Origin: Escherichia phage Eps7
DNA length: 64,000 nt
Direction: 5' to 3' (one strand)
Sequence record: NC_010583.1
Shown here: positions 5,892-49,599 of the stretch, in pieces
Position numbering within the stretch: the stretch's first letter is position 1
Layout: every line of letters begins with the position of its first letter
Notes under the pieces: model-generated
Told to the model about the DNA's origin: nothing
What the model saw: the letters and a program-made list of their open reading frames with translations, nothing else
Database searches by the model: none
Made by a program: the position numbers and the translations under genes

Positions 5892-6374
5892 TTATAAACT
5901 ATCAAGCTCCAATAGTTTAGCATCGCGCCATTCTATAGCATCCTCTAATTCTTTAAATGTTTTAGTATGTTTTACACCTTTCCTAGCTATTTGGACTTGA
6001 TAAGATCCACTTGCTTTTTGGTGTATATTTTTAATACCTAACTTATTGTCCTTATGTGCTCCAACGTTCTTTCCATTACTAAATCTGTTAGAGGCTAGTA
6101 AATTAATTGCTCTATTATCATGACGTATTCTATTATCATGATCTACTTCTTTTGGGATGTACCCATGCGTAATATAGAATGCTAGGATATGTGCGTAGTA
6201 TTTTGTACCTCTTACCTGCATTACTATGTATCCTGAGCATTTTTCCAAAGAGCCTGCCTCTTTGCCTGCAAACTTAGTATTAAATGATTTATCTTCTCTA
6301 GGTTTGTGGGTAAAGATTCCGGTTTCTGGATTATAGTCAAATAACTCAGCTATTTCTTTGTATTTTTCTTCCAT
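5892..6374 (-). CDS. HNH homing endonuclease with AP2-type DNA-binding domain
   Basis: HILAFYITHGYIP..VDHDNRIRHDNRAINL (HNH) plus GVKHTKTFKELEDAIEWRD (AP2-like); sits between nrdA and nrdB. Confidence 0.8.
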   Translation of the reverse strand: MEEKYKEIAELFDYNPETGIFTHKPREDKSFNTKFAGKEAGSLEKCSGYIVMQVRGTKYYAHILAFYITHGYIPKEVDHDNRIRHDNRAINLLASNRFSNGKNVGAHKDNKLGIKNIHQKASGSYQVQIARKGVKHTKTFKELEDAIEWRDAKLLELDSL

Positions 6375-6429: not shown

Positions 6430-8822
6430 TTATAATTGACAACCACCAGATGCGCATCCAGCAGCAGCTTCCTCTCCTGCACCTCCACCATTTTCAGTGT
6501 TGAAGTTTGCATAATAAAAGGTTTTCCAACCGTACTTAACAGCAGTCATAAAGTCACGAACTACTACTGGGCCGGGAATGATTTCATTCTCGAACTTGGT
6601 GTAGTCATAGTACATATTCGTACTGATAGACTGGCTGAAGAATTTCTGCATGGTTGCTACCCATTTGATCCACTCGATACGATCTACATCATAAGCCAGT
6701 TTATAGCTCATTAATGTATCCCAATCAGTTGCACCTGGAGCAATTGCAATTACTTTATTAACTGCACTACCCTTGATAGATACGATCTTACGGGGCGGTT
6801 CGATAGAGTTAGTAACACCTAGCAGTACAGAGGAACTTTCACCTGGCATCTGAGCAGTCAGAACAGAGTTGCGCATACCATATTTCAGAATATCTGCACG
6901 CAGAGATTCCCAATCCATTTCTAGACCTACAGTTACCAGTTCATCAACAGTTTTCTTGTACGTGTCGATTACCAGAGTTCCTTGCGAAGGCTTAGTACGA
7001 TTAAACCAGTCACATGCACCTTGTTCTTTAGCCAGACGTACAGAGGCTTTATGTAGGAAGTAGGACAGCTTTTCAGCTTCACGGTGAATCCAGTTACGTG
7101 CTTCAACACCTTCGTAAGCCAAACCTTCTGCTGCCATTGCACCTGCTGCGTTCATCAGACCAATACCAACGTTACGACGTTTCTTAGCCGTGTACTTCCA
7201 TAGTTGGGAATGGGTAATCCTGAATCTCGATGATTGTATCAACGAATTTCAGAAGGATGTAGCAAGTTTTCTCCCATTCAGCCAGAGATTCCATGCGGCC
7301 TAGTACAACACCACCTAAGTTACACAGAGATACTTCACCAATATCTTCTGGACGCATATCGTCTAACTGATCTTGGGTTTTATACAGTTCCGTAACGTGA
7401 TGGAATGGACGGGTGGCTGAGTAATTCAACACAAAAGGGTTGGTCATACGAATCGGGTCAAGGAAGTTACCATGACGGTTAGATTCACCAATGTGATGAG
7501 CATACATACGCCCTGTTTCCATACGGATACGTAACCAAGTATCTAGGATTTCTTTTGCAGAGATTCTAGGAGCTGCTGGAATTGTTTTTCCTTCGTGGTC
7601 GATCTTTGTAAGAGAAGCCACACGTTTCTCCGCTGCCACGTAGATTTCTTCAAACTTAGCCTCATCTTCACCATAAAACGCTTCATGAACTTCTGGTGCG
7701 TAGAAGTAGGACATTAGCGTAATATCTTCGTTTTTCAGGTAACGTTTTAACAGAAGGTTGTTAAAGCTCAGAGAATAATCCATCTTATCGATTTTATTCT
7801 CGTCTGTAGCACGTTGCTGCTTAACCTGCATCAACTGAATGATTTCAGGATCGAAGTATGGATAAGACACAGTAGCAGAACCGCCACGGGTTTGCTGAGT
7901 GTTAGCTTTTACTGATCGGTCAATGTGTCGATAATATGGCAGTTTTCCGGAATGCGGGAATGCCCCATTTCGCACCGGATCAGCAATTGATCGGCTTTCA
8001 AGATGATACCCGATTCCCGCTCTGGCTGCGACCATTTTGAAGACGATGTGCTCGGCTGTGTCGATTGAATCCAGCGTGTCAGTGGAATCCACGAGACAGC
8101 AACTAGCAAATCCACGGTCACTAGAGCGCAGGCCAACCAGTGGCGGCGTAGGAACGTTGATTTTGTGGAGCGACATTGCATTGTAGAGGTCGATTGCATC
8201 TAGGATTGTCCAGTTAGGTTGAGATAACATCGCCATTGCCATACCCATGTAGGCAAACTGCGGGGTTTCATAAATTTCACCAGTTGCAATATTACGACGA
8301 GAATACTTGTCGAAGAACTGTTTCAGTCCACCACTGGTGAATAAACGATCGCGATCATGATCAATAACTTGGTTCAGAGCGTCAAACTGATCATCGCTAA
8401 TCCATGCACTCATGTCTTCCCAGCGCCAACACGAACCATATGATCGTGGAAGAAACGCAGAGAAGGGGTTCAAAGGAATCATATAGGCGTTTACGCATCT
8501 GCGCAAGACGTAATTCCTTTGCTACAGTATCATATGCTGGGTTGTCTTTGATAAGACCTTCAGCGGCTTTAATTAACACATCTTGGAGGGTATCGGAATC
8601 TACAACACCTTTTGGTAGATTTTTCTGGGCAGACATAACGACGGCAGACCAACTTACGTCAGTTGCTTTACATGCCCATGCAGCCCAATCATTGAGTTTT
8701 TCAGGAGCAAAGTCCTGAACAGTACCGTCACGTTTAATTACTTTTTCAATACTATGGCTCATTGGGGTTTCCTTTTTGTAGTTATCAGGATTTAGGAAAT
8801 ATTCTACTTTGTTTTGGGTCAT
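6430..8822 (-). CDS. nrdA: ribonucleotide reductase class Ia alpha subunit, split over three frames by single-base indels
   Basis: ATP-cone N-terminus (8397..8822), catalytic core (7184..8506) and C-terminus GIGLMN..CASGGCQL (6430..7242) are collinear with E. coli NrdA; frame breaks at G4 (8465-8468), CCC (8419-8421) and about 7181-7190. Confidence 0.9.
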
Positions 8823-8885
8823 TATGCAAGTACAATTTTACAGATAAAAAGAGCCCGGATATTTTCATACCCAGGCTCGTCTGTC

Positions 8886-9128
8886 TTACCATTTAAGTTT
8901 ATCGGTTATATCAATTAGCTTCTGTTGTATTTCTCGGTTGAAGAGAATATCTACAGAAGTACTTAGTTCATTATAGTTGAAAGGCCGATTTGGATTAGAG
9001 GCTACAATTTTCCACGCTAGGGTAGTCTTAGGACTTTCTTCCCCTTCCTTACGTGTAATCATGTTAGCAGCACTCAGTGAAGTACGGTGGATCTTAGTTT
9101 TGCGGTGCAGATGTACGACGTTTCCCAT
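8886..9128 (-). CDS. hypothetical protein (80 aa)
   Basis: start overlaps the stop of the upstream PhoH-like ORF (TAATG coupling). Confidence 0.45.
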   Translation of the reverse strand: MGNVVHLHRKTKIHRTSLSAANMITRKEGEESPKTTLAWKIVASNPNRPFNYNELSTSVDILFNREIQQKLIDITDKLKW

Positions 9129-9129
9129 A

Positions 9130-9429
9130 TTACACCTTCCCCATATCCTTAAAGATATCGTAGAATGCTTTAGACTCCGGTGAGCGAACGTTGTCGATCA
9201 GTTCGATCATAGAGAAAGGAGAGTTTTCGTACTTCTCATAGACTTCCATAAGAAGTGCTAGACCTGAATCACCCTTGATGTCTTTCTGAGCTATATCCCC
9301 ACAGATAATTAAACGACAATCTTGTCCTACACGAGTCAGGAGACAGATCATTGCTTCAACGGAGATATTCTGAGCTTCATCGACAATTACATAGGAGTTG
9401 TTGAATGTTGCCACGCTTTCTTGAACCAT
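9130..9429 (-). CDS. PhoH-like ATPase, C-terminal half only (Walker B onward)
   Basis: VIVDEAQN, LTRVG, GDIAQKD, SGL and VRS motifs; no Walker A upstream; an out-of-frame ATG with AGGAG RBS lies at about 9463. Confidence 0.65.
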   Translation of the reverse strand: MVQESVATFNNSYVIVDEAQNISVEAMICLLTRVGQDCRLIICGDIAQKDIKGDSGLALLMEVYEKYENSPFSMIELIDNVRSPESKAFYDIFKDMGKV

Positions 9430-9536
9430 TGCGGTTCTCTCTTTTTTGACGTGCTTTTCCCATAAATAACACTCCTATAGTGTACTTCGCTAACAGAGGA
9501 TCAACAAAAAGATCTTGTTTATCAACTTACAAATAT

Positions 9537-9565
9537 ATTATACCAATATATGCGGGAGAAAGCAA
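9537..9565 (-). promoter_or_regulatory. sigma70-type promoter TTGCTT-17-TATAAT with downstream ATATTTGTAAGTTGATAAAC box
   Basis: minus-strand reading of the divergent intergenic region. Confidence 0.55.
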
Positions 9566-9756
9566 CTACAATTTTAAATAAGCCTATGATATTGCATTTA
9601 AATAAAAAATTTGCTTGCTTTTATTGGGAGATGTATGGTACTAGATAATCATTTTATATCGCGTACACGGGCGCGTGATTATACTATTTTTAATAGAGGT
9701 TGGCAAATAAAATTTTTTGACCCAGATCAATTTACAGAATGTTATAGTAAAATATT

Positions 9757-9786
9757 GTTGACATCCGCCTTCGAATGAGTTATAAT
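9757..9786 (+). promoter_or_regulatory. sigma70 promoter TTGACA-18-TATAAT for nrdD
   Basis: TTGACATCCGCCTTCGAATGAGTTATAAT, then GAGAAGGAGGG RBS. Confidence 0.6.
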
Positions 9787-9815
9787 AGTAGTCTTAGTTA
9801 GAGAAGGAGGGTATA

Positions 9816-12284: not shown

Positions 12285-12447
12285 TCTAGAAAACATGCTT
12301 ATGGAGCAGTGGAACTCTGGGTATAATGCTGGGGTGGCTACTTGTATTGCGGGGTTGGATATGCTTATTAAGCAAGAAAAGGTACGTCCAGAAGAAGCAA
12401 TTCTACTCCAAAATATCATCGAAGGATTCAAGCAAGGAATCGTATAA
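12253..12447 (+). CDS. hypothetical protein (64 aa)
   Basis: GGAGGAG RBS 7 nt upstream of ATG 12253; overlaps previous ORF. Confidence 0.4.
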   Translation: MDFLNQNLKNNLENMLMEQWNSGYNAGVATCIAGLDMLIKQEKVRPEEAILLQNIIEGFKQGIV

Positions 12448-13261
12448 TGCGTAGACTAATCGTTGTTAGTGGTGCAGGTTTGAGTGTAGATAGTGGTGTT
12501 CGTGCTTTCCGTACTGATACTGCTAGTGGTAAAGCGTTGTGGGATGATTATGACCTAGAAGAGGTATGTAATATTCATGCCTTTCGTGGTAATTTTACCA
12601 TAAAACTCATATGTTTTACAACAAACGTCGTGAAGAGTTACAAACTGTTGAACCTAACCTAGCTCATTTGCGTATTGGTGAATGGTATAAACGGTATCCA
12701 AATCAAGTGGTAAACCTTACTACCAATGTTGATGATCTAATCGAACGTGCTGGAGTGCCGAGAGAAGATATACTCCATATTCATGGATATCTGAAAGAAA
12801 TTATTGTAGAGCATGCGTTCGACCAGACACGTGATGTTATTGATATTGGGTATAGTTCTATTGATCCAGATGACTTTGATTGGGTTAAACCTAACGTTAT
12901 CTTCTTTGGTGAGGTTGCTCCTGCCTATAAAACAATGTATGAGGTTTTTGATGGTATCACCAGTCATGATATGATCATCATTGTTGGGTGCTCTAACCAA
13001 GTAATTAACTTCTACTGGGAGCTATTTCCTGTTCTGAATCTTACTGCTGCAAAACTTATGGTAGTTAACTATTACGATAGTGCAGTAGCTATGGAACCAG
13101 GCTATCAGGGCATGACTCGTAGTGAAATGTATCAGTTAGAAGAACGTGGTATTCCTTACTGGAGTAAAGGTGCTGTGGATGCCTTTAGTGATCCCGATTT
13201 TATTGCTCGTGTGGAAGCTCATCTAGAAGGTAAACCCTATGTTCAACAAAAGCATGTGTGA
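12447..13261 (+). CDS. Sir2-family NAD-dependent deacetylase / ADP-ribosyltransferase-like protein, frameshifted
   Basis: VVSGAGLSVDSGVRAFR (GAGxS..SG..FR), TTNVDDLIERAG, HG, KPNVIFFGE, IIVGCS motifs; frame break at T4 (12594-12597). Confidence 0.8.
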
Positions 13262-36640: not shown

Positions 36641-36718
36641 TTTAGTAAGGAGTTGTTTTACTAATTCCTTTATTTTATTAATCTTTTTTTTTTTGAAAGG
36701 GTGCAAAACGAACCTCTT

Positions 36719-36748
36719 GCATTTTGCATTTTGCATTTTGCGTTTTCA
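36719..36748. repeat. tandem heptamer (GCATTTT) x4 next to a T11 tract at the convergent early/late junction
   Basis: TTGCATTTTGCATTTTGCATTTTGCGTTTTC; T11 run at about 36684-36694. Confidence 0.6.
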
Positions 36749-36882: not shown

Positions 36883-39833
36883 TTATGGTAGTTCTGTAAT
36901 TGTTGGAGCATTTCCGTTAAGCATTGATTTTACAAGGTTTTTCAGTTCATATAACTCATTGCGTAATACGTTAATTTCCTCCTGTTGATTATCAATCTTT
37001 GCTTTTTGCTCTTTGAATGCGTTAACAAGAAGTGCGACAACACCATTATAGTTAATGCCTTTGATTGCCTCGCCTTTTGGGTCTAGCTGACCATCGTTAT
37101 TCAAAGAATGAACCGCTTCCGGCAAAACCCTTTCAACATCTTGTGCGATCAATCCAGCCTCAATACTATAAACGCTGTTTTCATCTTCAATTAGATTGTT
37201 GCGCTTGTAGTAAGTATAACCAGTTAGATAATCAATTTTGTCGGATGCCGTTTCGATCTCTTTTAGATGTGCTTTTAATCTAATGTCAGACCTGCTAACC
37301 CAATTTGATGCGCTACCATTTCCAGCACTATCAAAAATAAAGTCAGCGCCCTTAACATAAAGATGTGTTTCAGCGCCGCCAGAAGTCCACGGAACAACAT
37401 CCATGCCAGCTATCCAATCTTTCCCCAATAAACAGATTTAAATATGGCAACCGCAGAATCAAATCCAATGTGCTCAACAAGCAATCCAGACGCACGACTA
37501 CGCCAGTCGGCAAATGAACCACCCTCAACTTGACCAGCAATAAGAGCGTTTGGATCACCGCGCCTAACTCCATTTACATACATACCCCTTGCGTTATCAT
37601 CAACATAAGATGATATGACCCTGTAAGTGTTTATTCCTGATGGAGTCCATGCAAATATTCTCGCTGAATCAGCAAACGCGCTTATGTGACCATCACGATC
37701 CCATTTAAGACCTGAATCATGATCCCCAATTGCTATAGAGTAATCACCAAGAGCCGATTGAGCATCCGGACTTAATAACATCAATTGCCTATCAGATCTT
37801 GCTATCCTGTACCATCCACCCCAAGAGCCAGCACTGCAAATGATACCCCATTTATTACCGTTCATTGCGGTTGCAACAATATTTCCATACTCAACATGAC
37901 CGTTTGCATTTTTACCGTGAACATGCAATTCATACATCCACCAACCAGAGGCTTCAGGTGGTTGATATGTAACAAGTTCTCCGCTTGAGTAATAACCGCT
38001 TTCTGCGTATGTTGACATAAACCCAAGAATGTTTGAATTATTAGGAATAATAATTGCTTGACCACCAACAGGAGTATTTAAGTTCTTTCTTGCTCCAACT
38101 TCAGTATTAGATCCAGTGCCGCCAGCATCAATTGAAAGAGGAATCCATCTTCCAGTTTCATCAGTCCAAACACCCCACGCCGCATCAGGTCTAATTGTGA
38201 TTCGATAAGGTGAGTTACTCCCTGGTGCATACATCATAGTTTCTGTTTCTGTTTGCTTTAAACGATCAATGCCAAAGTTTATTTTTGCGCCCTCAACGTT
38301 TTCAGCACCAGTACCGCCAGCACCAATAGAAAGCGCAGATGTGCTGTTATTGTCATTACGCGCAACGCGCCATTCCCCATTGTTAGCGATCCGTAATTCA
38401 TAAGTCCATGCAGGATTACGAAAAGAATTATAAGCGCCAGCATATTGATCTTTTACAGAATTAACAGCCTCAACTTTTAGCGCCTCCCTTGCAAGGTCTT
38501 TGTTTGCAAGATCATTAAGGTTCTGATCCTTCTTTAACGACGCTTGCATAACCTGTTCTGCTGATGCAGCCGCTGTCTCCGCTCTATCTGCTGCACTGGT
38601 GGCATTAGTAGCTTTCTCTCCTGCTATTGTAGCGCTACCAGCGGCCTCCAGGGCCTTGTCTGTTGCTGTCGTTGCAGCAGTAGTGGCGGTATTTTTAAAT
38701 ACCTCTGCTTCGTCTCTGTAGCCTTTGGTTGTGGTCATCGCTTGCGTAGCTGTATTCGCACTACCTGATGCACTTTGCTGAGCTAGCTTAGCAGCGTCTT
38801 CACTAGCTTTTGAGTTAATTTCACTAGTCTTTGTATTAGTTTCTGAGTTTTTTGCTGCTAATGCTGATGTGGAGGCTTGTGCAGCGAATGCTTCTGCTTC
38901 ATCCCTGAATCCTTTGGAGTCAGAAGCAGAGGCAGCGGAATCAGCAGCATTAGTCTCACTAGTTTTTGCTGCTGCTGCATATGCTGCTGCATTAGTCTCA
39001 CTAGTTTTTGCATTAGTCTCACTAGTTTTTGCATTAATCTCACTAGTTTTTGCTGCAGCTGATGATTCTATAGCAGTAGTTTCACTAATTTTTGCTGCAG
39101 CTGATGATTCTGCAGCTTTAGTAGCGGATGCAGCAGATTGAGAAGCAGAAATAGCAGACTGAGAAGCAGAAGCTTCAGAAGCTTCAGCAGAAATAGCAGA
39201 TTCATTCTCAGAATTCTTAGCATTAAGTTCTGAAGTCTTAGCAGCTATCTCGGAGTCTTTTGCAGTAGTAGCGTATTCTCCCGCCTCTGTAGCAGAACCA
39301 GCAGCAGCAATAGCCTGATTGGTAGACTCAGTAGCAGATGTAGCAGCATTTTGCTCAGAAGTAGCAGCAGCAGTCTTAGCAGCCTCAGCGTCCTTCTTAG
39401 CTTGTTCAGCTAATAGACGACTCTGTTCAGCATTTTGTGCAGCAAGTTCAGCAGAATCACGGAATCCTTTGGATTCCTCAGCTGACGTAGCAGAGGCATC
39501 AGCACTATCTTTAGATAAACCAGCTTGTCTCTCCGCTTCAGTAGCAGAAGCAGCAGATTGAGTTGCAGAAGTTTCTGAAGAGTTAGCGTAAATTGCAGCT
39601 AGGTTCTCCGAGTCCTTAGCATTTGTTTCAGATTCTTTTGCTGCAATTTCAGAATCTTTTGCTGCCGCAGCAGAAGCAGCAGAGGCCTCAACAGCCCCTG
39701 TTAGTTCACTAGCAGTAATAGAACTAATAGAAGTACCTAAAACTACCGTATACTTAGGATATTTACTAGCAGTAGTTGTAGTGTCATCTATGTTCAGAAT
39801 CTGCTGTACAATAATTTTAGTTTTAAGTGCCAT
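36883..39833 (-). CDS. ltf: L-shaped tail fibre (pb1-like) with C-terminal intramolecular chaperone domain, frameshifted
   Basis: Ala/Ser/Thr-rich fibrous repeats, then a Gly-rich globular domain, then chaperone motif IEAGLIAQDVERVLPEAV; frame break at C4/G4 (37423-37426). Confidence 0.8.
38947..39115. repeat. 21-bp tandem repeats inside the tail fibre gene (encoding KTSETNA heptads)
   Basis: ATTAGTCTCACTAGTTTTTGC x3 in tandem at 38990-39052 plus further partial copies. Confidence 0.7.
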
Positions 39834-40260: not shown

Positions 40261-42319
40261 TTACCTTATATGGATATACCCACTATTTAGGTCTATCTTC
40301 ATCTTGTAGTATGCTTCAGGGTTTCCTGATAACGCAGCATTTCTATCGTAGATTATATTAACACCTATTTGTGATAAGAAGGCATTTCCTGCCACAATCT
40401 TATCAGCAGTTACAGTTCCATTAACAATCATGTTGCCATGAAGAACCATTGCAGGGTTAATCCATCCAGCCCCGTTCCATTGACGGGTAAATGCTGTTTG
40501 TGGAGCATTACTGTTAAATTGTGTTAGAACATCGTATTTAACCGGAGGTTTTCCAAAGTTATTTTGAAAGAATGCGTTAGCTTGTCCATCATCCCAACCG
40601 CCTAATCCAGGAATACCCATGGAGTACATCCCAGGACCACGCTGTCCATCATGTCCTATAGTACCTTCAGTACCACTCCATTGAACTACATCAGACCAGC
40701 TAGTACCTTCAAGAAGTTTGTTAGTAACTGGATCAAGTGTACCTGTAGTCGCATAGATATTTTGTGTCATATCTGTACGATTAGGTGGAGTTTTTGACCA
40801 ACCAGGAGGTGGATAATCTTGTTCTAACGGTTTGGCCGGTAAAGATGTTGCTAACTTATAAACAAATACTGTTTGCTTACCTTGTAAACCAGTTCCAATA
40901 TCTACGTCACCATTTGGTGTTCCAATTACTACACCACTAGAAATACGCAGAGTAGTACCATCATAACGTATCCATTGTGTAGCATTACCAATGTCTAACT
41001 TAGCTTTGGCAGAGGTATTATCCATACCCATCCAAATACCAGAGTTATTATCTCCCCAAGATTTACCTTGAGTATAAATTGCTGGATTATCTTTACCAGA
41101 TAAGTTAGTCATGATAAAGTTCGCAGCATTAATATCTCTAGTAATTACTTTACCATCGACGTTAACAACACGATTTATAGGGTCGAAAGAAATAGGTGCT
41201 TTTCCTTCTTCATCTAGCAGACCAATGTTAATAGCACCAGTAGCTGCATCAATTAAGAATGTCTGTCTCCAGATTTCTCCATCTTTCATACTACCCTTAA
41301 TAAAGGCATAGTTAACATCAATACCAGTCTCATTGACAAAACTATTATCTAGAGGAGTATCTTCATTCAATATAAATGTTACAGGAGCTGATTCTGTTAT
41401 ATCTTGCTTATTTGGTCCCCAGGCAATTGATGAAACCTTAAAGGTATGTTCAACTTTCCATGGGAATGATATAATCGTTGCAGCTCTAGCAGCACCCACG
41501 TTTATCTTTTGAGCTTTAGCCCATCCGGTTTTAGCGTATTCCTCGGAGTTTATATAAGTAACCAAGAACTCACGAACGTTAGCACCAGCACCACGTTCCC
41601 ATTCCCACTCAATTCTAACATCATATCGTTCTTTACCATCAGCAATTCGTGCAGCTTTAAAAACAATATCGATAGGTGCAGTAGGTGGAACAAAGTTATA
41701 AGCTACAGTTAGAATATTAGGAAACTCGTAGTATCCTGAAGAATCAACTGTAACACCATCAGGCATAGTTACTTGACCAGATATTCTGATCTTATAGTCT
41801 CCGATAGGAACTCCACCAAATTTAATAGTAGAACCTAAAGCCCCAATATAATATTTAGTCCAAGGACTGTCTTCAGTGGCTGTACTTTTTAACTCAATAG
41901 TACAGTAACTTGCTTCACCAGTTGTTTCCACAACAACTATCGGTGCGCCCACCCCAACATCCACAGGTTCTGACTCAGATCTTGCTGCGACAATTATTGG
42001 CTTCTCTTTTGTTTTAAAGTTAGTTTCATTAGAGAGGTTAATACCAATTTTTGCATTTAAAAGTTCTGAGTCAATAATCGAGTCATAAAAAAGCTCCCTG
42101 AACCTGATAGGTAGTTGAGGGAGTTAAATTATTGATCATAACAAAGAAAGTGTCGATTCCAGTGAAATCTCTTCTATCCACTTCTTCGCCAAGTTTAAGC
42201 CAGAATGATCTACCGATAACATCGTAGTCGGTATAGATAGAATGCTGGATATACGCCATCGTATACCCAGTCATAATACTATTTAAGACCATCTTGGCTG
42301 GTGCATTATTCGAAATCAT
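40261..42319 (-). CDS. baseplate/tail-tip protein pb4-like, frameshifted
   Basis: 78-aa and 567-aa ORFs join into ~686 aa if the A6 run (42087-42092) is read as A5. Confidence 0.7.
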
Positions 42320-45887: not shown

Positions 45888-48800
45888 TTAAGAATTACCA
45901 AGTGATTTCAGGGTGGTTCCATTCTCATTAAGAGCCTGTTCCACGGCATCCCTGAAAGCAGCACTGTTACTCGAAGCAAAGTCTCGGAAGCTAGCCGCAT
46001 CCATCGTACTGATGTTCAGCACAATAGGCCTACCCGATGTACCCTTTGAAGATCCTTTGAGTTCATCAGTAGGAGTAGCCTTCATCGGAACCATAGGAGT
46101 GATTACTTCGGTACCATGCTCACCCATCTGGTAACTAACTCCAGGGTACATATTACCACCTTCTGCACGAGGTACGAAAGAGTTCGCATTACCAATCCCT
46201 TGATCTCCTCGAATATAAGAAAGTTCTCCTGCGTTAGCCGACATAGAAACGTCTACGTTCTTCTGGCGCTCTCCAAGAGACAAGTATTGAGCTGTCTCAG
46301 TACCCGAGTCTCCAATAGAAGACATACCAGATGCAGAGGATGCTTGTGCAAGAGACAATGCACCTGCAACACCTGCTGCAATCATAAGAGGGATAGACCA
46401 CGGGTAAGGAACAGCTGTTGCTGCTTGCATCACCGCTACTGCCGTCTGAATTATGATCTGCTTCTTAGCTGCGTCTTGCTGGATCTTAACCTTTTCCGCT
46501 TCCAGTTTCTTGAGCTTAGCTTTAGATGCTTCGGATTTACCGTCACGTTTTTGCTCTGCTGCAATAGCCTGGTCAATAGCTGATACTTGATTACTTACTC
46601 CCATAGCAATCATTGAAGAAACCATCTGCATACCTGCCGCCACAGTGCTAACAGTATCTAAAGATCCCTGAGAGAACTGCATCATGGCATTAGTAAGATT
46701 TCCCATACTCTGGCCAACTTCCGTTGCTTGGCTATTTAATGCTCCAAGTTTAGAAATAGCTTCGTCGTAAGAGGCCATCTGGTTCTGCATATCAGCATAC
46801 TTCTTATCATCCCCAGATAAACCAGTCGTAGGAGTATAAGTAGCTCCAACAGAAGAACCTACCTGTTGCTGCATCTGAGCATTACGTTGTGCTGTTAAAG
46901 CCGACATCTGAGCCCTTGTCTTGGCTATTTCAGCATTCCAGCGCATTTGCTCGTTAGCATTACCTTTGGTAAGTTCTTTCATCTTGGTATAAAAATCTAA
47001 CTGCATTTCCATTTTTTTGCATTTCCCCTGCCAGAGGGAACATGGAAGTTAGAGTATTTTCAAAGGCTTCTTGCCTTTTACTGGTCATTTCAGCTTGCTG
47101 GTCTTGGCGGAATTTCCAGATTTCACGCCCTATCTGTGCTTGAGCACGTCTTGATTGTTCAGCTTCTTTCTGCTTATCAGCTTGTTTTGTATACCATTCG
47201 TACTTCTCTTTTTCAATAGTCAATTCAAGATTTAACTGTGCTAGACGATACTGAGTATCTGTCATAGTACGGTTATTTAAGAGAGCTATTTCACGATCAA
47301 CACCAAGAATCTTATCCGTATAGTCCTTAACTTTCTTCTGAGCTTCCATGTCCTGGTTAGTAATTTTGATACGTTCTAACTGAACCTTAGCTATTTCATT
47401 CTCAATTGCCTTGTTACCTTTGTTAGTTTCTAGGACACGCTTAAGAGCTGCTTCCTGTTCTTCTAACTGTTGGATTTCTAGACGTCTACCCGCTTCCTGT
47501 GCTTTCTCTTTATCCTTGGTCTGGTTGTACACTTCGGCAATCTTTTGCTGAACTTCTAGCTGATTTTTAGTCTCATTACTAGTTAATTTTACATAACCAG
47601 CAAGAGCTTGTGAGGCAGTCTTCATCTCACTAAGAGTATTATACCCTAAGTTCAGACTCTTAACATACTCATCAGCATTTTTACCAGTGCCGGCAGATAG
47701 AGACTCAATAGTCTTAATCGTATCCGATAGGGATGCACTAGTTTTAGCCGCAGTATTAGTATTTTCGGCAATGTTCTGGATATCGTTAGCTAAATCACTA
47801 GCAGTTTTCTTAGCCTGATCATATGCTTTCTGCTGTTCCGTCAGTCCTTTCAGAGTTGCGGAGTTAAAGTCATAAACCGCATCAGGGTCATTCATATCCT
47901 TCTGCAGATTAATCTGCTTCTGAAATTCTGGATTAGTCTTAGCAGCCGCAGCACCAGCAGCTTGATACGCAGATTTCCAAGCATTAAGGTTTTCAGTAGA
48001 GTCATCAACTTCTTTACCTAACCTTGCTACCTGTAGTCCCATAGCTGCGGTTTCTTCTACAAACTTTTTGTTAGCTTCGGAAGAACCTATGCGCACTCCC
48101 CCTACTTCAAATCCCCCAGCAGCTAATCCAACAGGCATTCCCTCACCCACTAATCTAATAGCGGCAGCAGTACTAGCATCTGCTTGGGACATACGTTTAT
48201 CAAACTCAGTCTTTAGTTTATTACGCTTATCCAGAGACTCTTTATACATATCAAGAGCTTTATTATATCCTTCCTCGGAAGCGGAAAGACTTAAAGCTAC
48301 AGCACCAACGTTAGTTGGGTCAATCTGACGGTTAGTTTCTTCTTGTGCTCTAGCAGCAGAAGCCGAGATAGATGCTTGAGAAGTATAGAATACTGCGTTA
48401 ATAGAATCAATTACCGGCCCTAAATACTTAGCAGCAGCCTGTTGAACCTTTCTTAGTGCAGCATCAGCGTTAGCAGCAAACTGTTCCCATGGAGTTGCAC
48501 GGAGTACGTCATCCAAGTAGCCGAAACGTTTAGTAGATTCAGCAATTACTGCGTTAGCATATGCTTGTTGCTTTTGGAAAGTGGAAAGACTATTGACGTT
48601 ATATGTGATACCTGTGTTAGCAGCATTTAACTGTTTAACGTAGTCAGCGTAAGCATCATTAAGACGAATAGTAACACCAAGTTCGTCCAGAAGTTCGATT
48701 TCTTGTTTAGATACACCTTTGATTACACGGTTAAGTGCATCAGTCATATCAACACCAAGAACAGCAGCAGCACGACGGGCTACTAGACCAAATTTATTAA

Positions 48801-49599
48801 GTTGTTCAGCATCGAATCCATATGCAGAAGCAGAGGATGCCTGTCTCATTGCTTCTTCGAAGGAGATTGCATAACCAGCAGCCTCTTGTAGAGATCTAGC
48901 TAGAGTTTGTACCGGAGTACCTGTTTGAGTACCTACAATAGTACCGAACTTCTCCAGACGGTTTAACTGGTCACCCATCTTAAGTTGTTCGAATGCAGAT
49001 TGTAGAACGAACACGTTAGATGCGATAGCAGCATACATAAGAGGTAGAGAACCACCAACTTTAGCCATTGCTGCGAAGTCACGAGTAGCACCACGTGCAG
49101 AACCAGAGGTATTACCTAGAGCACGACTAGCACGACCTGCGGATGTGGTAGTATCATTGAAGCCTCTAGTAGTACCCGACAAAACACGGTTTGTATCATA
49201 TAATCTATCTTGAACTTTTTCAGTTGCAGCAGCTACATCGTTACCCATCGCCTTAACAGATTTACCAACATGTGTAAATCCAGACTCTAGCTTATCGGAT
49301 ACCTCAATCATAGCAATAGCAAGGTCATCTAACTTAGCACCAATACTATCCATAGATTTGGTGATACCCATCATACCTCTGCTAGCCTGCATTTTTGTTA
49401 GACTTTTAGCTGCTCTATCCGCCGCCCTCTCAATGGAGTAAAGAGTTTTGGGCATTTTTCCCAACTGCTCGTTAGTCAGTTCGGAAGCGGCAGCAGCATT
49501 TTCTAACGCATCGGAAACGTTCTCAATAGATTTTGCAGTACGGGTTGCCCCTTTCTGCTTTACATCTATAAGTAGTTCTCGTATTAGCTTATCAGTCAT
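45888..49599 (-). CDS. tail tape measure protein (pb2-like), frameshifted
   Basis: long coiled-coil protein; 879-aa and 374-aa ORFs join (~1236 aa) if the T7 run (47013-47019) is read as T6. Confidence 0.9.

What the first reader, a model, noticed from the sequence alone, without database searches (positions are those of the whole stretch)
9130..9470. PhoH-like ATPase reduced to its C-terminal half
Walker B (VIVDEAQN) and the downstream PhoH motifs are present, but no Walker A region exists upstream. An ATG with a strong AGGAG RBS lies out of frame and would extend the protein by only ~11 aa if an A6 run were A5. This is either a decayed gene or a partner-dependent fragment.
Basis: seen in the sequence. 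Interest (0 to 1): 0.45.

Follow-up and report, generated by a model that had tools for sequence, protein, structure and literature searches.

The report
Deletion-truncated phoH gene in phage EPS7
The short "PhoH" reading frame is the leftover 3' end of an ordinary 250-residue T5-type phoH gene that has lost 419 internal bases in this one phage record (EPS7), so it is a dead gene remnant or possibly a sequencing artefact, not a new kind of half-ATPase.

Summary
ORF 9130-9429 (-) encodes 99 aa that match only the C-terminal part of the Pfam PhoH domain (profile 117-204 of 205, E 6e-23). Walker B is present, Walker A is absent, and an out-of-frame ATG with an AGGAG RBS sits at 9463.

The cause is not the A6 run, which is identical in relatives. 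The window is the phage EPS7 reference record; the 99-aa product is exactly ACB97554.1. Relatives, including PSa2 of the same species, encode a 250-aa PhoH at this locus. The window lacks nt 59-477 of that gene (419 nt, codons 20-159, including Walker A GEPGTGKT), with the junction at 9406|9405.

The deletion shifts the frame. The native start now yields a 28-aa peptide, and the annotated ORF starts at a non-native ATG. None of 442 related phage records and no public viral, metagenome or genome contig carries this junction. The promoter, RBS and all retained codons are unchanged, so the lesion is either recent or artefactual.

The record also has private 1-nt frameshifts in nrdA, dhfr, ligase, tail proteins and the tape measure, so a cloning or assembly artefact is about as likely as a real deletion. 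T5 phoH knock-down has no fitness cost, so a real loss would be tolerated. Ordinary; low interest.

The parts
9130..9429 (-). Annotated 99-aa ORF (EPS7 ACB97554.1 / YP_001837034.1, 'phosphate starvation inducible protein'). Residues 1-7 (MVQESVA) are read out of frame from the native 5' end. Residues 8-99 are native PhoH residues 159-250, containing Walker B and the downstream motifs.
9130..9405 (-). Retained 3' part of phoH (nt 478-753 of the 753-nt gene, plus stop TAA 9132-9130). It has two synonymous differences from PSa2, and the protein is 100% identical to SB6 PhoH residues 159-250.
9405..9406 (-). Deletion junction. 419 nt (phoH nt 59-477, codons 20-159, with Walker A GEPGTGKT) are missing between these two bases. 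In relatives both breakpoints are preceded by an imperfect direct repeat: CGTGGC-AAC(A) on the left and CGTGGCCGAAC(T) on the right.
9406..9463 (-). Retained native 5' end of phoH (58 nt: ATG 9463-9461 plus codons 2-19), identical to relatives including the A6 run.
9377..9463 (-). Reading frame now opened by the native start: 28 codons, MGKARQKRENRNGSRKRGN (native) followed by IQQLLCNCR (frameshifted), ending at TGA 9379-9377.
9472..9476 (-). Native Shine-Dalgarno AGGAG of phoH. The duplex with the 16S 3' end is -7.1 kcal/mol, against -4.9 for the sequence upstream of ATG 9429.
9537..9565 (-). Promoter-like site, read by eye: TTGCTT, 17 nt, TGG-TATAAT (extended -10). It is identical in relatives. 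The -35 hexamer (3 of 6 matches) falls below the scan's threshold.
   Evidence: read from the sequence; not reported by the scan
9678..9706 (-). Promoter-like site TTGCCA, 17 nt, TATAAT (11 of 12 matches), upstream of phoH in the nrdD-phoH divergent intergenic region.
8886..9128 (-). Downstream 80-aa DUF7430 gene. Its ATG lies 1 nt after the phoH stop (TAATATG) and it has its own strong SD (-9.0 kcal/mol). It is the last gene of the unit.
8851..8878 (-). Terminator-like hairpin (12 pairs) followed by a T-run, closing the phoH-DUF7430 unit.

Best explanation
The feature is the 3' remnant of a canonical T5-type phoH gene (250 aa in all relatives) in the phage EPS7 genome record.

**The lesion.** A single 419-nt internal deletion (phoH nt 59-477, junction at window 9406|9405) removed codons 20-159. 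That segment holds the Q motif, Walker A (GEPGTGKT) and the RNA-binding loops. The deletion also shifted the frame.

**Consequences for translation.**
- Ribosomes starting at the intact native RBS and ATG (9463) make a 28-aa basic peptide and stop at 9377.
- The Walker B to C-terminus segment can only be translated from a fortuitous ATG (9429). This ATG lies in another frame of the native 5' end and has a weaker SD.
- A product from ATG 9429 would lack the P-loop and the central strand of the ASCE core, so it could not bind or hydrolyse ATP. The locus is therefore a null allele.
- The downstream DUF7430 gene keeps its own SD.

**Origin.** The breakpoints sit beside short imperfect direct repeats (CGTGGC..AAC). 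This is typical of slippage or illegitimate recombination, which could have occurred in the phage or in a shotgun clone.

**What is shown.** The deletion, its exact borders, the frameshift, its uniqueness to this record, and the integrity of the flanks.

**What is inferred.** Loss of function, low or irrelevant expression of the 99-aa ORF, tolerance of the loss, and the repeat-mediated origin. Whether the deletion exists in the virus or only in the 2008 record is unresolved, at roughly even odds.
For: - **Family match.** The Pfam PhoH match covers only profile 117-204 of 205 in the window ORF, against 4-204 of 205 in the PSa2 orthologue.
- **Deletion.** Alignment A1 shows a clean 419-column gap with identical flanks. 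Its borders and the frameshift were computed.
- **Uniqueness.** An 81-nt query across the junction splits into two pieces spanning 500 nt in 428 of 442 related phage records, and none has the junction. The junction 24/35-mers have 0 hits in viral, metagenome and genome contigs.
- **Source.** The ORF product is exactly EPS7 ACB97554.1, from a 111,382-bp contig. PSa2, classified in species Epseptimavirus EPS7, has an intact 753-nt gene at the same locus.
- **Conservation.** PhoH is single-copy and at least 95% identical in 429 phage records. T5 phoH is 753 nt.
- **Dispensability.** T5 phoH is classed 'Not Fit', meaning no fitness cost on knock-down, in CRISPRi-ART (PMC11879866 supplementary files 8 and 16).
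- **Motif map.** The PhoH motif order is Q, Walker A, RRB1/2, Walker B, Sensor I, SRH, motif III, Sensor II (PMC7390352). PDB 3b85 aligns to PSa2 PhoH residues 45-233.
- **Start sites.** SD strengths are.
Against: - Nothing in the sequence contradicts the deletion reading.
- Loss of function is inferred, not measured.
- ATG 9429 has a moderate SD-like match (-4.9 kcal/mol), so some 99-aa product could be made.
- Only 64 kb of the 111-kb genome was available, so a second phoH copy elsewhere in EPS7 is excluded only by analogy with relatives (one place per record).
- The CRISPRi-ART T5 screen also scored primase as 'Not Fit', so its sensitivity is limited.
Confidence: 0.9

Rival explanations
1. 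The deletion is a cloning or assembly artefact of the 2008 EPS7 record. The phage itself carries an intact 250-aa phoH. The 419 nt were lost in a shotgun clone or mis-joined in a poorly covered stretch just downstream of very strong early promoters, which are hard to clone in E. coli.
For: - The record has many private 1-nt indels relative to both SB6 and PSa2 that break genes a viable phage should need intact. These include the tape measure pb2 (47017), two tail proteins (37423, 42087) and ligase B (22290), plus nrdA (three frames) and dhfr.
- PMC5816814 Table 4 lists EPS7 pb2 as two CDS.
- Private indels are concentrated next to phoH. In 7-9.5 kb the ratio of private indels to substitutions is 8:19, against 1:79 in 10-13 kb. 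That ratio looks like error, not evolution.
- The retained codons, RBS and 196 nt upstream show no decay at all.
- The junction is found nowhere else.
- Near-consensus promoters flank the gene. The difficulty of cloning strong T5 promoters comes from my own knowledge and was not tested here.
Against: - The demonstrable errors in the record are 1-2 nt base-calling-type indels. A clean 419-nt loss is a different class of event.
- nrdD on the other side of the promoters is clean.
- phoH knock-down is tolerated in T5, so a real deletion is biologically plausible.
- The sequencing method could not be checked because Hong et al. 2008 is not held.
Confidence: 0.45
2. The 99-aa protein is a functional stand-alone or partner-dependent half-ATPase. 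It would complement a separately encoded Walker A module or a host PhoH/YbeZ.
For: - An ORF with Walker B and the downstream motifs is open.
- It has a moderate SD-like sequence.
- It is annotated as a protein in GenBank.
Against: - No Walker A or N-terminal PhoH module is present elsewhere in the window.
- No relative has the short form.
- The other short members of its 90% cluster are contig-end partials or come from an assembly in which the neighbouring genes are all called in fragments, MG969412.1.
- Its first 7 residues are out-of-frame read-through of the native 5' end.
- Its start codon lies inside the frame translated from the stronger native start.
- The fragment lacks the P-loop strand that sits at the centre of the ASCE sheet (from established knowledge of P-loop NTPases; motif order).
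Confidence: 0.03
3. One reading: a 1-nt error in the A6 run (9440-9450) separates the true start from the ORF, and correcting it restores the gene.
For: The arithmetic works. ATG 9463 and ATG 9429 are 34 nt apart, so A6 to A5 would fuse them.
Against: - The A6 run is identical in PSa2 and saus132, where it lies in the correct frame of the full-length gene.
- The fused product would be 110 aa, still without Walker A, and its residues 8-18 would be non-native.
Confidence: 0.01

Closest known systems
PhoH of T5-like phages (T5.098 phoH, 753 nt; Epseptimavirus PSa2 UIR90682.1, saus132 YP_009794931.1, SB6 QDB70778.1; 250 aa; phrog_170)
   Same: It occupies the same locus between nrdD (divergent) and DUF7430-nrdA, with the same promoter region, RBS and start codon. 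The 19 N-terminal and 92 C-terminal residues that remain are 100% identical.
   Different: It lacks codons 20-159 (Walker A and the RNA-binding loops) and is frameshifted. Only profile positions 117-204 of 205 of PF02562 are left.
PhoH-like ATPase of Corynebacterium glutamicum (PDB 3B85) and the bacterial PhoH/YbeZ family (PF02562)
   Same: The full-length relative aligns to 3b85 over residues 45-233 (E 2e-31). The window fragment keeps the segment from Walker B (DEAQN) through the GD..Q.D region.
   Different: The window product corresponds only to about residues 120-196 of the 208-residue chain. The P-loop half is missing.
PhoH2 (PIN-PhoH) RNA helicase/RNase of mycobacteria
   Same: It has the same PhoH-domain motif series. 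PhoH2 shows ATP-dependent RNA unwinding, the best biochemical lead for what an intact phage PhoH does (PMC7390352).
   Different: There is no PIN domain in T5-type PhoH. The window remnant lacks the Q motif, Walker A and RRB1/2, so it cannot work like PhoH2.
Ordinary deletion or frameshift pseudogenes and error-split genes in early phage genome records
   Same: This is a single record-specific lesion in a gene that is otherwise conserved. The remnant was annotated under the parent gene's name. The same record has further split genes: nrdA, pb2, tail proteins and ligase.
   Different: The lesion is a 419-nt deletion rather than the 1-nt indels that split the other genes.

Membership tests
PhoH-like ATPase (Pfam PF02562 / phrog_170) | Significant match to the family profile | tested here: met
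   PF02562 E 5.6e-23, 81.9 bits (cut-off 27); phrog_170 E 9e-32.
PhoH-like ATPase (Pfam PF02562 / phrog_170) | Complete domain (profile covered end to end) | tested here: not met
   Only profile positions 117-204 of 205 are covered. The orthologue in PSa2 covers 4-204 of 205.
PhoH-like ATPase (Pfam PF02562 / phrog_170) | Walker A P-loop (GxxGxGKT) | tested here: not met
   GEPGTGKT (residues 66-73 of the orthologue) lies inside the deleted 419 nt. No copy is found elsewhere in the window.
PhoH-like ATPase (Pfam PF02562 / phrog_170) | Walker B (hhhhDEAQN) and downstream Sensor I / motif III region | tested here: met
   VIVDEAQN at residues 14-21 and IICGDIAQKD downstream, aligned to 3b85 VILDEAQN and VVTGDITQVD through the orthologue.
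PhoH-like ATPase (Pfam PF02562 / phrog_170) | ATP binding and hydrolysis | not testable with these tools
   Inferred to be lost because the P-loop is absent.
Gene remnant (pseudogene) of T5-type phoH | Full-length orthologue at the syntenic position in close relatives | tested here: met
   A 753-nt gene lies between nrdD and DUF7430-nrdA in PSa2, saus132 and SB6. In 428 of 442 records the flanks lie 419 nt further apart.
Gene remnant (pseudogene) of T5-type phoH | Lesion that destroys the reading frame or an essential motif | tested here: met
   The 419-nt deletion is not a multiple of 3. The native frame stops after 28 codons and Walker A is removed.
Gene remnant (pseudogene) of T5-type phoH | No intact second copy in the genome | tested here: inconclusive
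   There is none in the 64-kb window and relatives have one copy per genome. The other 47 kb of EPS7 were not available.
Gene remnant (pseudogene) of T5-type phoH | Lesion present in the organism, not only in the record | not testable with these tools
   The record carries many error-like frameshifts. No reads or independent EPS7 sequence are available.

The most novel reading that the evidence does not exclude
EPS7 really is a viable natural phoH-null T5-like phage. It would be a ready-made knockout with a ~98% identical phoH-plus relative of the same species (PSa2) as comparator. The pair could be used to find out what the very widespread but functionally unassigned phage PhoH does, for example under phosphate limitation or at the level of RNA metabolism.
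Probability: 0.45. Interest if true: 0.3.

Novelty: already known. Interest (0 to 1): 0.08.

Why it matters
It matters little biologically. The main value is curation.

- The EPS7 reference, which is the type genome of Epseptimavirus, annotates a 99-aa gene remnant as "phosphate starvation inducible protein". The same record splits nrdA, pb2, two tail proteins and ligase by frameshifts that look like errors. Users of this reference should not read these as real architectures, whether for core-gene sets, phoH marker-gene studies or protein-family seeds.
- If the deletion is real, it is independent natural evidence that phoH is dispensable for lytic growth of a T5-like phage. That agrees with the CRISPRi-ART result for T5.

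Tried and rejected
- **A6 to A5 correction.** Rejected, because the run is invariant in relatives.
- **Separately encoded Walker A module.** tblastn and blastn of the deleted segment against the window gave only chance hits.
- **Conserved short architecture.** Rejected. The other roughly 100-aa members of the 90% protein cluster are contig-end partials (contigs of 389-4229 bp). The exception is P0006 from MG969412.1, where nrdD, phoH and nrdA are all called in fragments.
- **Same junction elsewhere.** Searches of 442 related phage records, IMG/VR, JGI metagenomes and GTDB genomes gave 0 hits.
- **The 419 nt as an insertion in relatives (mobile element or intron).** Rejected, because it encodes the conserved N-terminal half of the PhoH domain.
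- **The EPS7 record itself.** It is not in the annotated phage collection.
- **The EPS7 genome paper.** Hong et al. 2008 is not held, so the sequencing method could not be checked.
- **Literature mention of the truncation.** None was found. PMC5816814 Table 4 lists other EPS7 differences but not phoH.
- **HIDEN-SEQ preprint.** It has no T5-like essentiality data.
- **Structure prediction of the fragment.** I judged it uninformative and did not run it.

Full report
**What is in the sequence**

On the minus strand, an ORF runs from ATG 9429 to the stop at 9132-9130 and encodes 99 aa.
- It matches Pfam PF02562 (PhoH) with E 5.6e-23, but only over profile positions 117-204 of 205. It also matches phrog_170 with E 9e-32.
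- Walker B (VIVDEAQN) is at residues 14-21. There is no Walker A.
- A second ATG lies 34 nt upstream, at 9463, preceded by AGGAG (9476-9472). It is in a different frame.

This includes the arithmetic that removing one A from the A6 run would fuse the two starts and add 11 codons.

**Where the window comes from**

The 99-aa sequence is exactly ACB97554.1 / YP_001837034.1, 'phosphate starvation inducible protein' of Escherichia phage Eps7, on a 111,382-bp contig. The 80-aa downstream product is exactly EPS7 ACB97553.1. The window is therefore part of the EPS7 reference genome. That record is not in the annotated phage collection used here; the best hits are 97-98% identical relatives.

**What the lesion is**

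- A 1101-nt query around the ORF matches relatives as two pieces that span 1520 nt.
- In PSa2 (classified in species Epseptimavirus EPS7), saus132 and SB6, the same locus carries a 753-nt, 250-aa phoH. It lies between the divergently transcribed nrdD and a small DUF7430 gene followed by nrdA.
- The three-way alignment shows identical sequence through the promoter region, RBS, ATG and first 58 nt, including the A6 run. A clean 419-column gap in the window follows, and then near-identical sequence to the stop.
- The computed borders are phoH nt 59-477, with the junction between window 9406 and 9405. The deleted peptide spans residues 20-159 and contains Walker A, GEPGTGKT.
- Because 419 is not a multiple of three, the native start now gives MGKARQKRENRNGSRKRGN plus nine frameshifted residues and a stop at 9377.
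- The annotated ORF begins at an ATG that lies in another frame of the native 5' end. Its first seven residues (MVQESVA) are non-native, and only residues 8-99 are PhoH residues 159-250.
- In relatives, both breakpoints are preceded by an imperfect direct repeat (CGTGGC-AACA on the left, CGTGGCCGAACT on the right). This is the usual context for slippage or illegitimate recombination; that origin is my inference.

**Is the short form shared or compensated?**

- An 81-nt query centred on the junction splits into two pieces spanning exactly 500 nt in the rows listed. It covers at least 80% of the query in 428 of 442 related records. No record has the junction as one piece.
- Exact junction words have no match in IMG/VR, JGI metagenomes or GTDB genomes.
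- tblastn with the intact protein finds PhoH in 3098 phage records. In 429 of them identity is at least 95%, with one place per record in the rows shown. T5 phoH is also 753 nt.
- The deleted segment has no copy elsewhere in the window at protein or DNA level.
- Other roughly 100-aa members of the same 90% cluster are contig-end partials. The exception comes from MG969412.1, where nrdD, phoH and nrdA are all called in fragments.

The 'conserved stand-alone domain' and 'separate Walker A partner' readings are therefore not supported.

**Functional consequence (inferred)**

- The intact relative covers the whole PhoH profile (4-204 of 205, 207 bits) and aligns to the solved PhoH-like ATPase 3b85 over residues 45-233.
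- The PhoH domain motifs run in the order Q, Walker A, RRB1, RRB2, Walker B, Sensor I, SRH, motif III, Sensor II, and in PhoH2 they support ATP-dependent RNA helicase activity (PMC7390352).
- The deletion removes everything before Walker B. A product without the P-loop strand cannot bind ATP or complete the ASCE core (from established knowledge of P-loop NTPases).
- The native start has the stronger SD (-7.1 kcal/mol). ATG 9429 has a moderate one (-4.9) and lies inside the frame translated from the native start. The downstream DUF7430 gene has its own strong SD (-9.0).
- The locus is best described as a null allele of phoH that may still yield a 28-aa basic peptide and perhaps traces of an inert 99-aa fragment.

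**Real deletion or artefact?**

The lesion shows no sign of age.
- The 196 nt upstream are identical to relatives.
- The retained 111 codons carry no amino-acid change.
- The retained 3' part has only two synonymous differences from PSa2.

So the lesion is either very recent or not biological.

The record is demonstrably error-prone.
- Relative to both SB6 and PSa2, the window has private 1-nt indels that split several genes:
  - nrdA, into three frames;
  - dhfr;
  - ligase B;
  - two tail proteins;
  - the tape measure pb2.
- There is also a compensating pair in thyA.
- The pb2 split is visible in the published comparison of EPS7 with chee130_1 (PMC5816814).
- A viable phage should not carry frameshifts in its tape measure and baseplate genes (my inference).
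- In 7-9.5 kb, right next to phoH, the ratio of private indels to substitutions is 8:19. In 10-13 kb it is 1:79. The first ratio looks like base-calling error rather than evolution.
- One frameshift, in SIR2 at 12593, is shared with PSa2 and is probably real.

A 419-nt loss is a different class of event from 1-nt errors. It could have arisen in a shotgun clone of this region, which is rich in strong promoters (promoter-like sites; the cloning difficulty is from my own knowledge).

On the other hand, a real deletion would be tolerated. In the T5 transcriptome-wide CRISPRi-ART screen, phoH, nrdA, nrdB and nrdD are all 'Not Fit' (PMC11879866 supplement). That screen also scored primase as 'Not Fit', so its sensitivity is limited.

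I put the two possibilities at roughly even odds.

**Comparison with what is known, and verdict**

The ORF belongs by descent to the T5-type PhoH family. It fails the family's defining features of a complete domain and a Walker A motif because of a record-specific deletion. It is a gene remnant of a well-known, already annotated gene in a published genome.

The proposed homopolymer cause and the partner-dependent alternative are not.

Interest is low. The useful outcomes are a curation warning about the EPS7 reference and, if PCR confirms the deletion, a natural phoH-null T5-like phage with a near-isogenic phoH-plus relative.

Noticed in passing
window 6430-8822 (-): nrdA (777-797 aa in relatives) is split into three frames: ORFs 8397-8822, 7184-8506 and 6430-7242. 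The cause is private 1-nt indels at 8467, 8422 and 7195, plus a locally compensated cluster at 7414-7437. The protein is otherwise 98-99.6% identical to relatives downstream of residue 120; residues 1-119 are only 82% identical to SB6. The indels look like sequencing errors.
   Followed up: partly
window 3710/3718 (thyA), 4327 (dhfr), 22290 (ligase B subunit): These are private 1-nt indels relative to both SB6 and PSa2. thyA has a compensating pair 8 nt apart. dhfr and ligase B are frameshifted.
   Followed up: partly
window 36883-39833, 40261-42319, 45888-49599 (-): Three structural genes are each split by one private 1-nt indel in a homopolymer: a 983-aa tail protein (37423), a 685-aa tail protein (42087) and the tape measure pb2 (47017). 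The pb2 split also appears as two CDS in the EPS7 annotation cited in PMC5816814. This is implausible for a viable phage, so these are probably record errors.
   Followed up: partly
window 12447-13258 (+): The Sir2-like gene is frameshifted at 12593 relative to SB6. PSa2 has the same split (SIRT5_1 / SIRT5_2), so this one looks like a real shared polymorphism.
   Followed up: partly
window 5892-6374 (-): A 160-aa homing-endonuclease ORF lies between nrdB and nrdA. It is present in the window and in SB6, where a second, partly duplicated copy follows, but it is absent from PSa2. It appears to be a mobile insertion polymorphism.
   Followed up: no
window 8886-9128 (-): The 80-aa DUF7430 protein (phrog_5357) sits directly after phoH in the early nucleotide-metabolism region, with its ATG 1 nt after the phoH stop. 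It is labelled 'tail length tape measure protein' in RefSeq and PHROGs. That label looks like a propagated misannotation for so small an early-region protein.
   Followed up: no
window 9470-9815: The nrdD-phoH intergenic region carries divergent near-consensus sigma-70 promoters. One is a perfect 12/12 TTGACA-17-TATAAT at 9758-9786 (+); another is 11/12 at 9706-9678 (-). There is also a G+C-rich hairpin at 9658-9679. The region downstream of 9599 is base-for-base identical to PSa2 and saus132 (alignment A1); the part holding these two promoters and the hairpin was not compared base by base.
   Followed up: no
window 36684-36735: The intergenic region has length polymorphism relative to relatives: a T-run and extra copies of a TTTGCAT(T) unit, 7-14 nt longer than in PSa2 and SB6.
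   Followed up: no
L004 (MG969412.1, 62500-68805): This public T5-like assembly of 148,669 bp has nrdD, phoH and nrdA all called as multiple short fragments, which suggests a heavily frameshifted assembly. It is the source of another spurious 'short PhoH' (P0006, 101 aa).
   Followed up: partly
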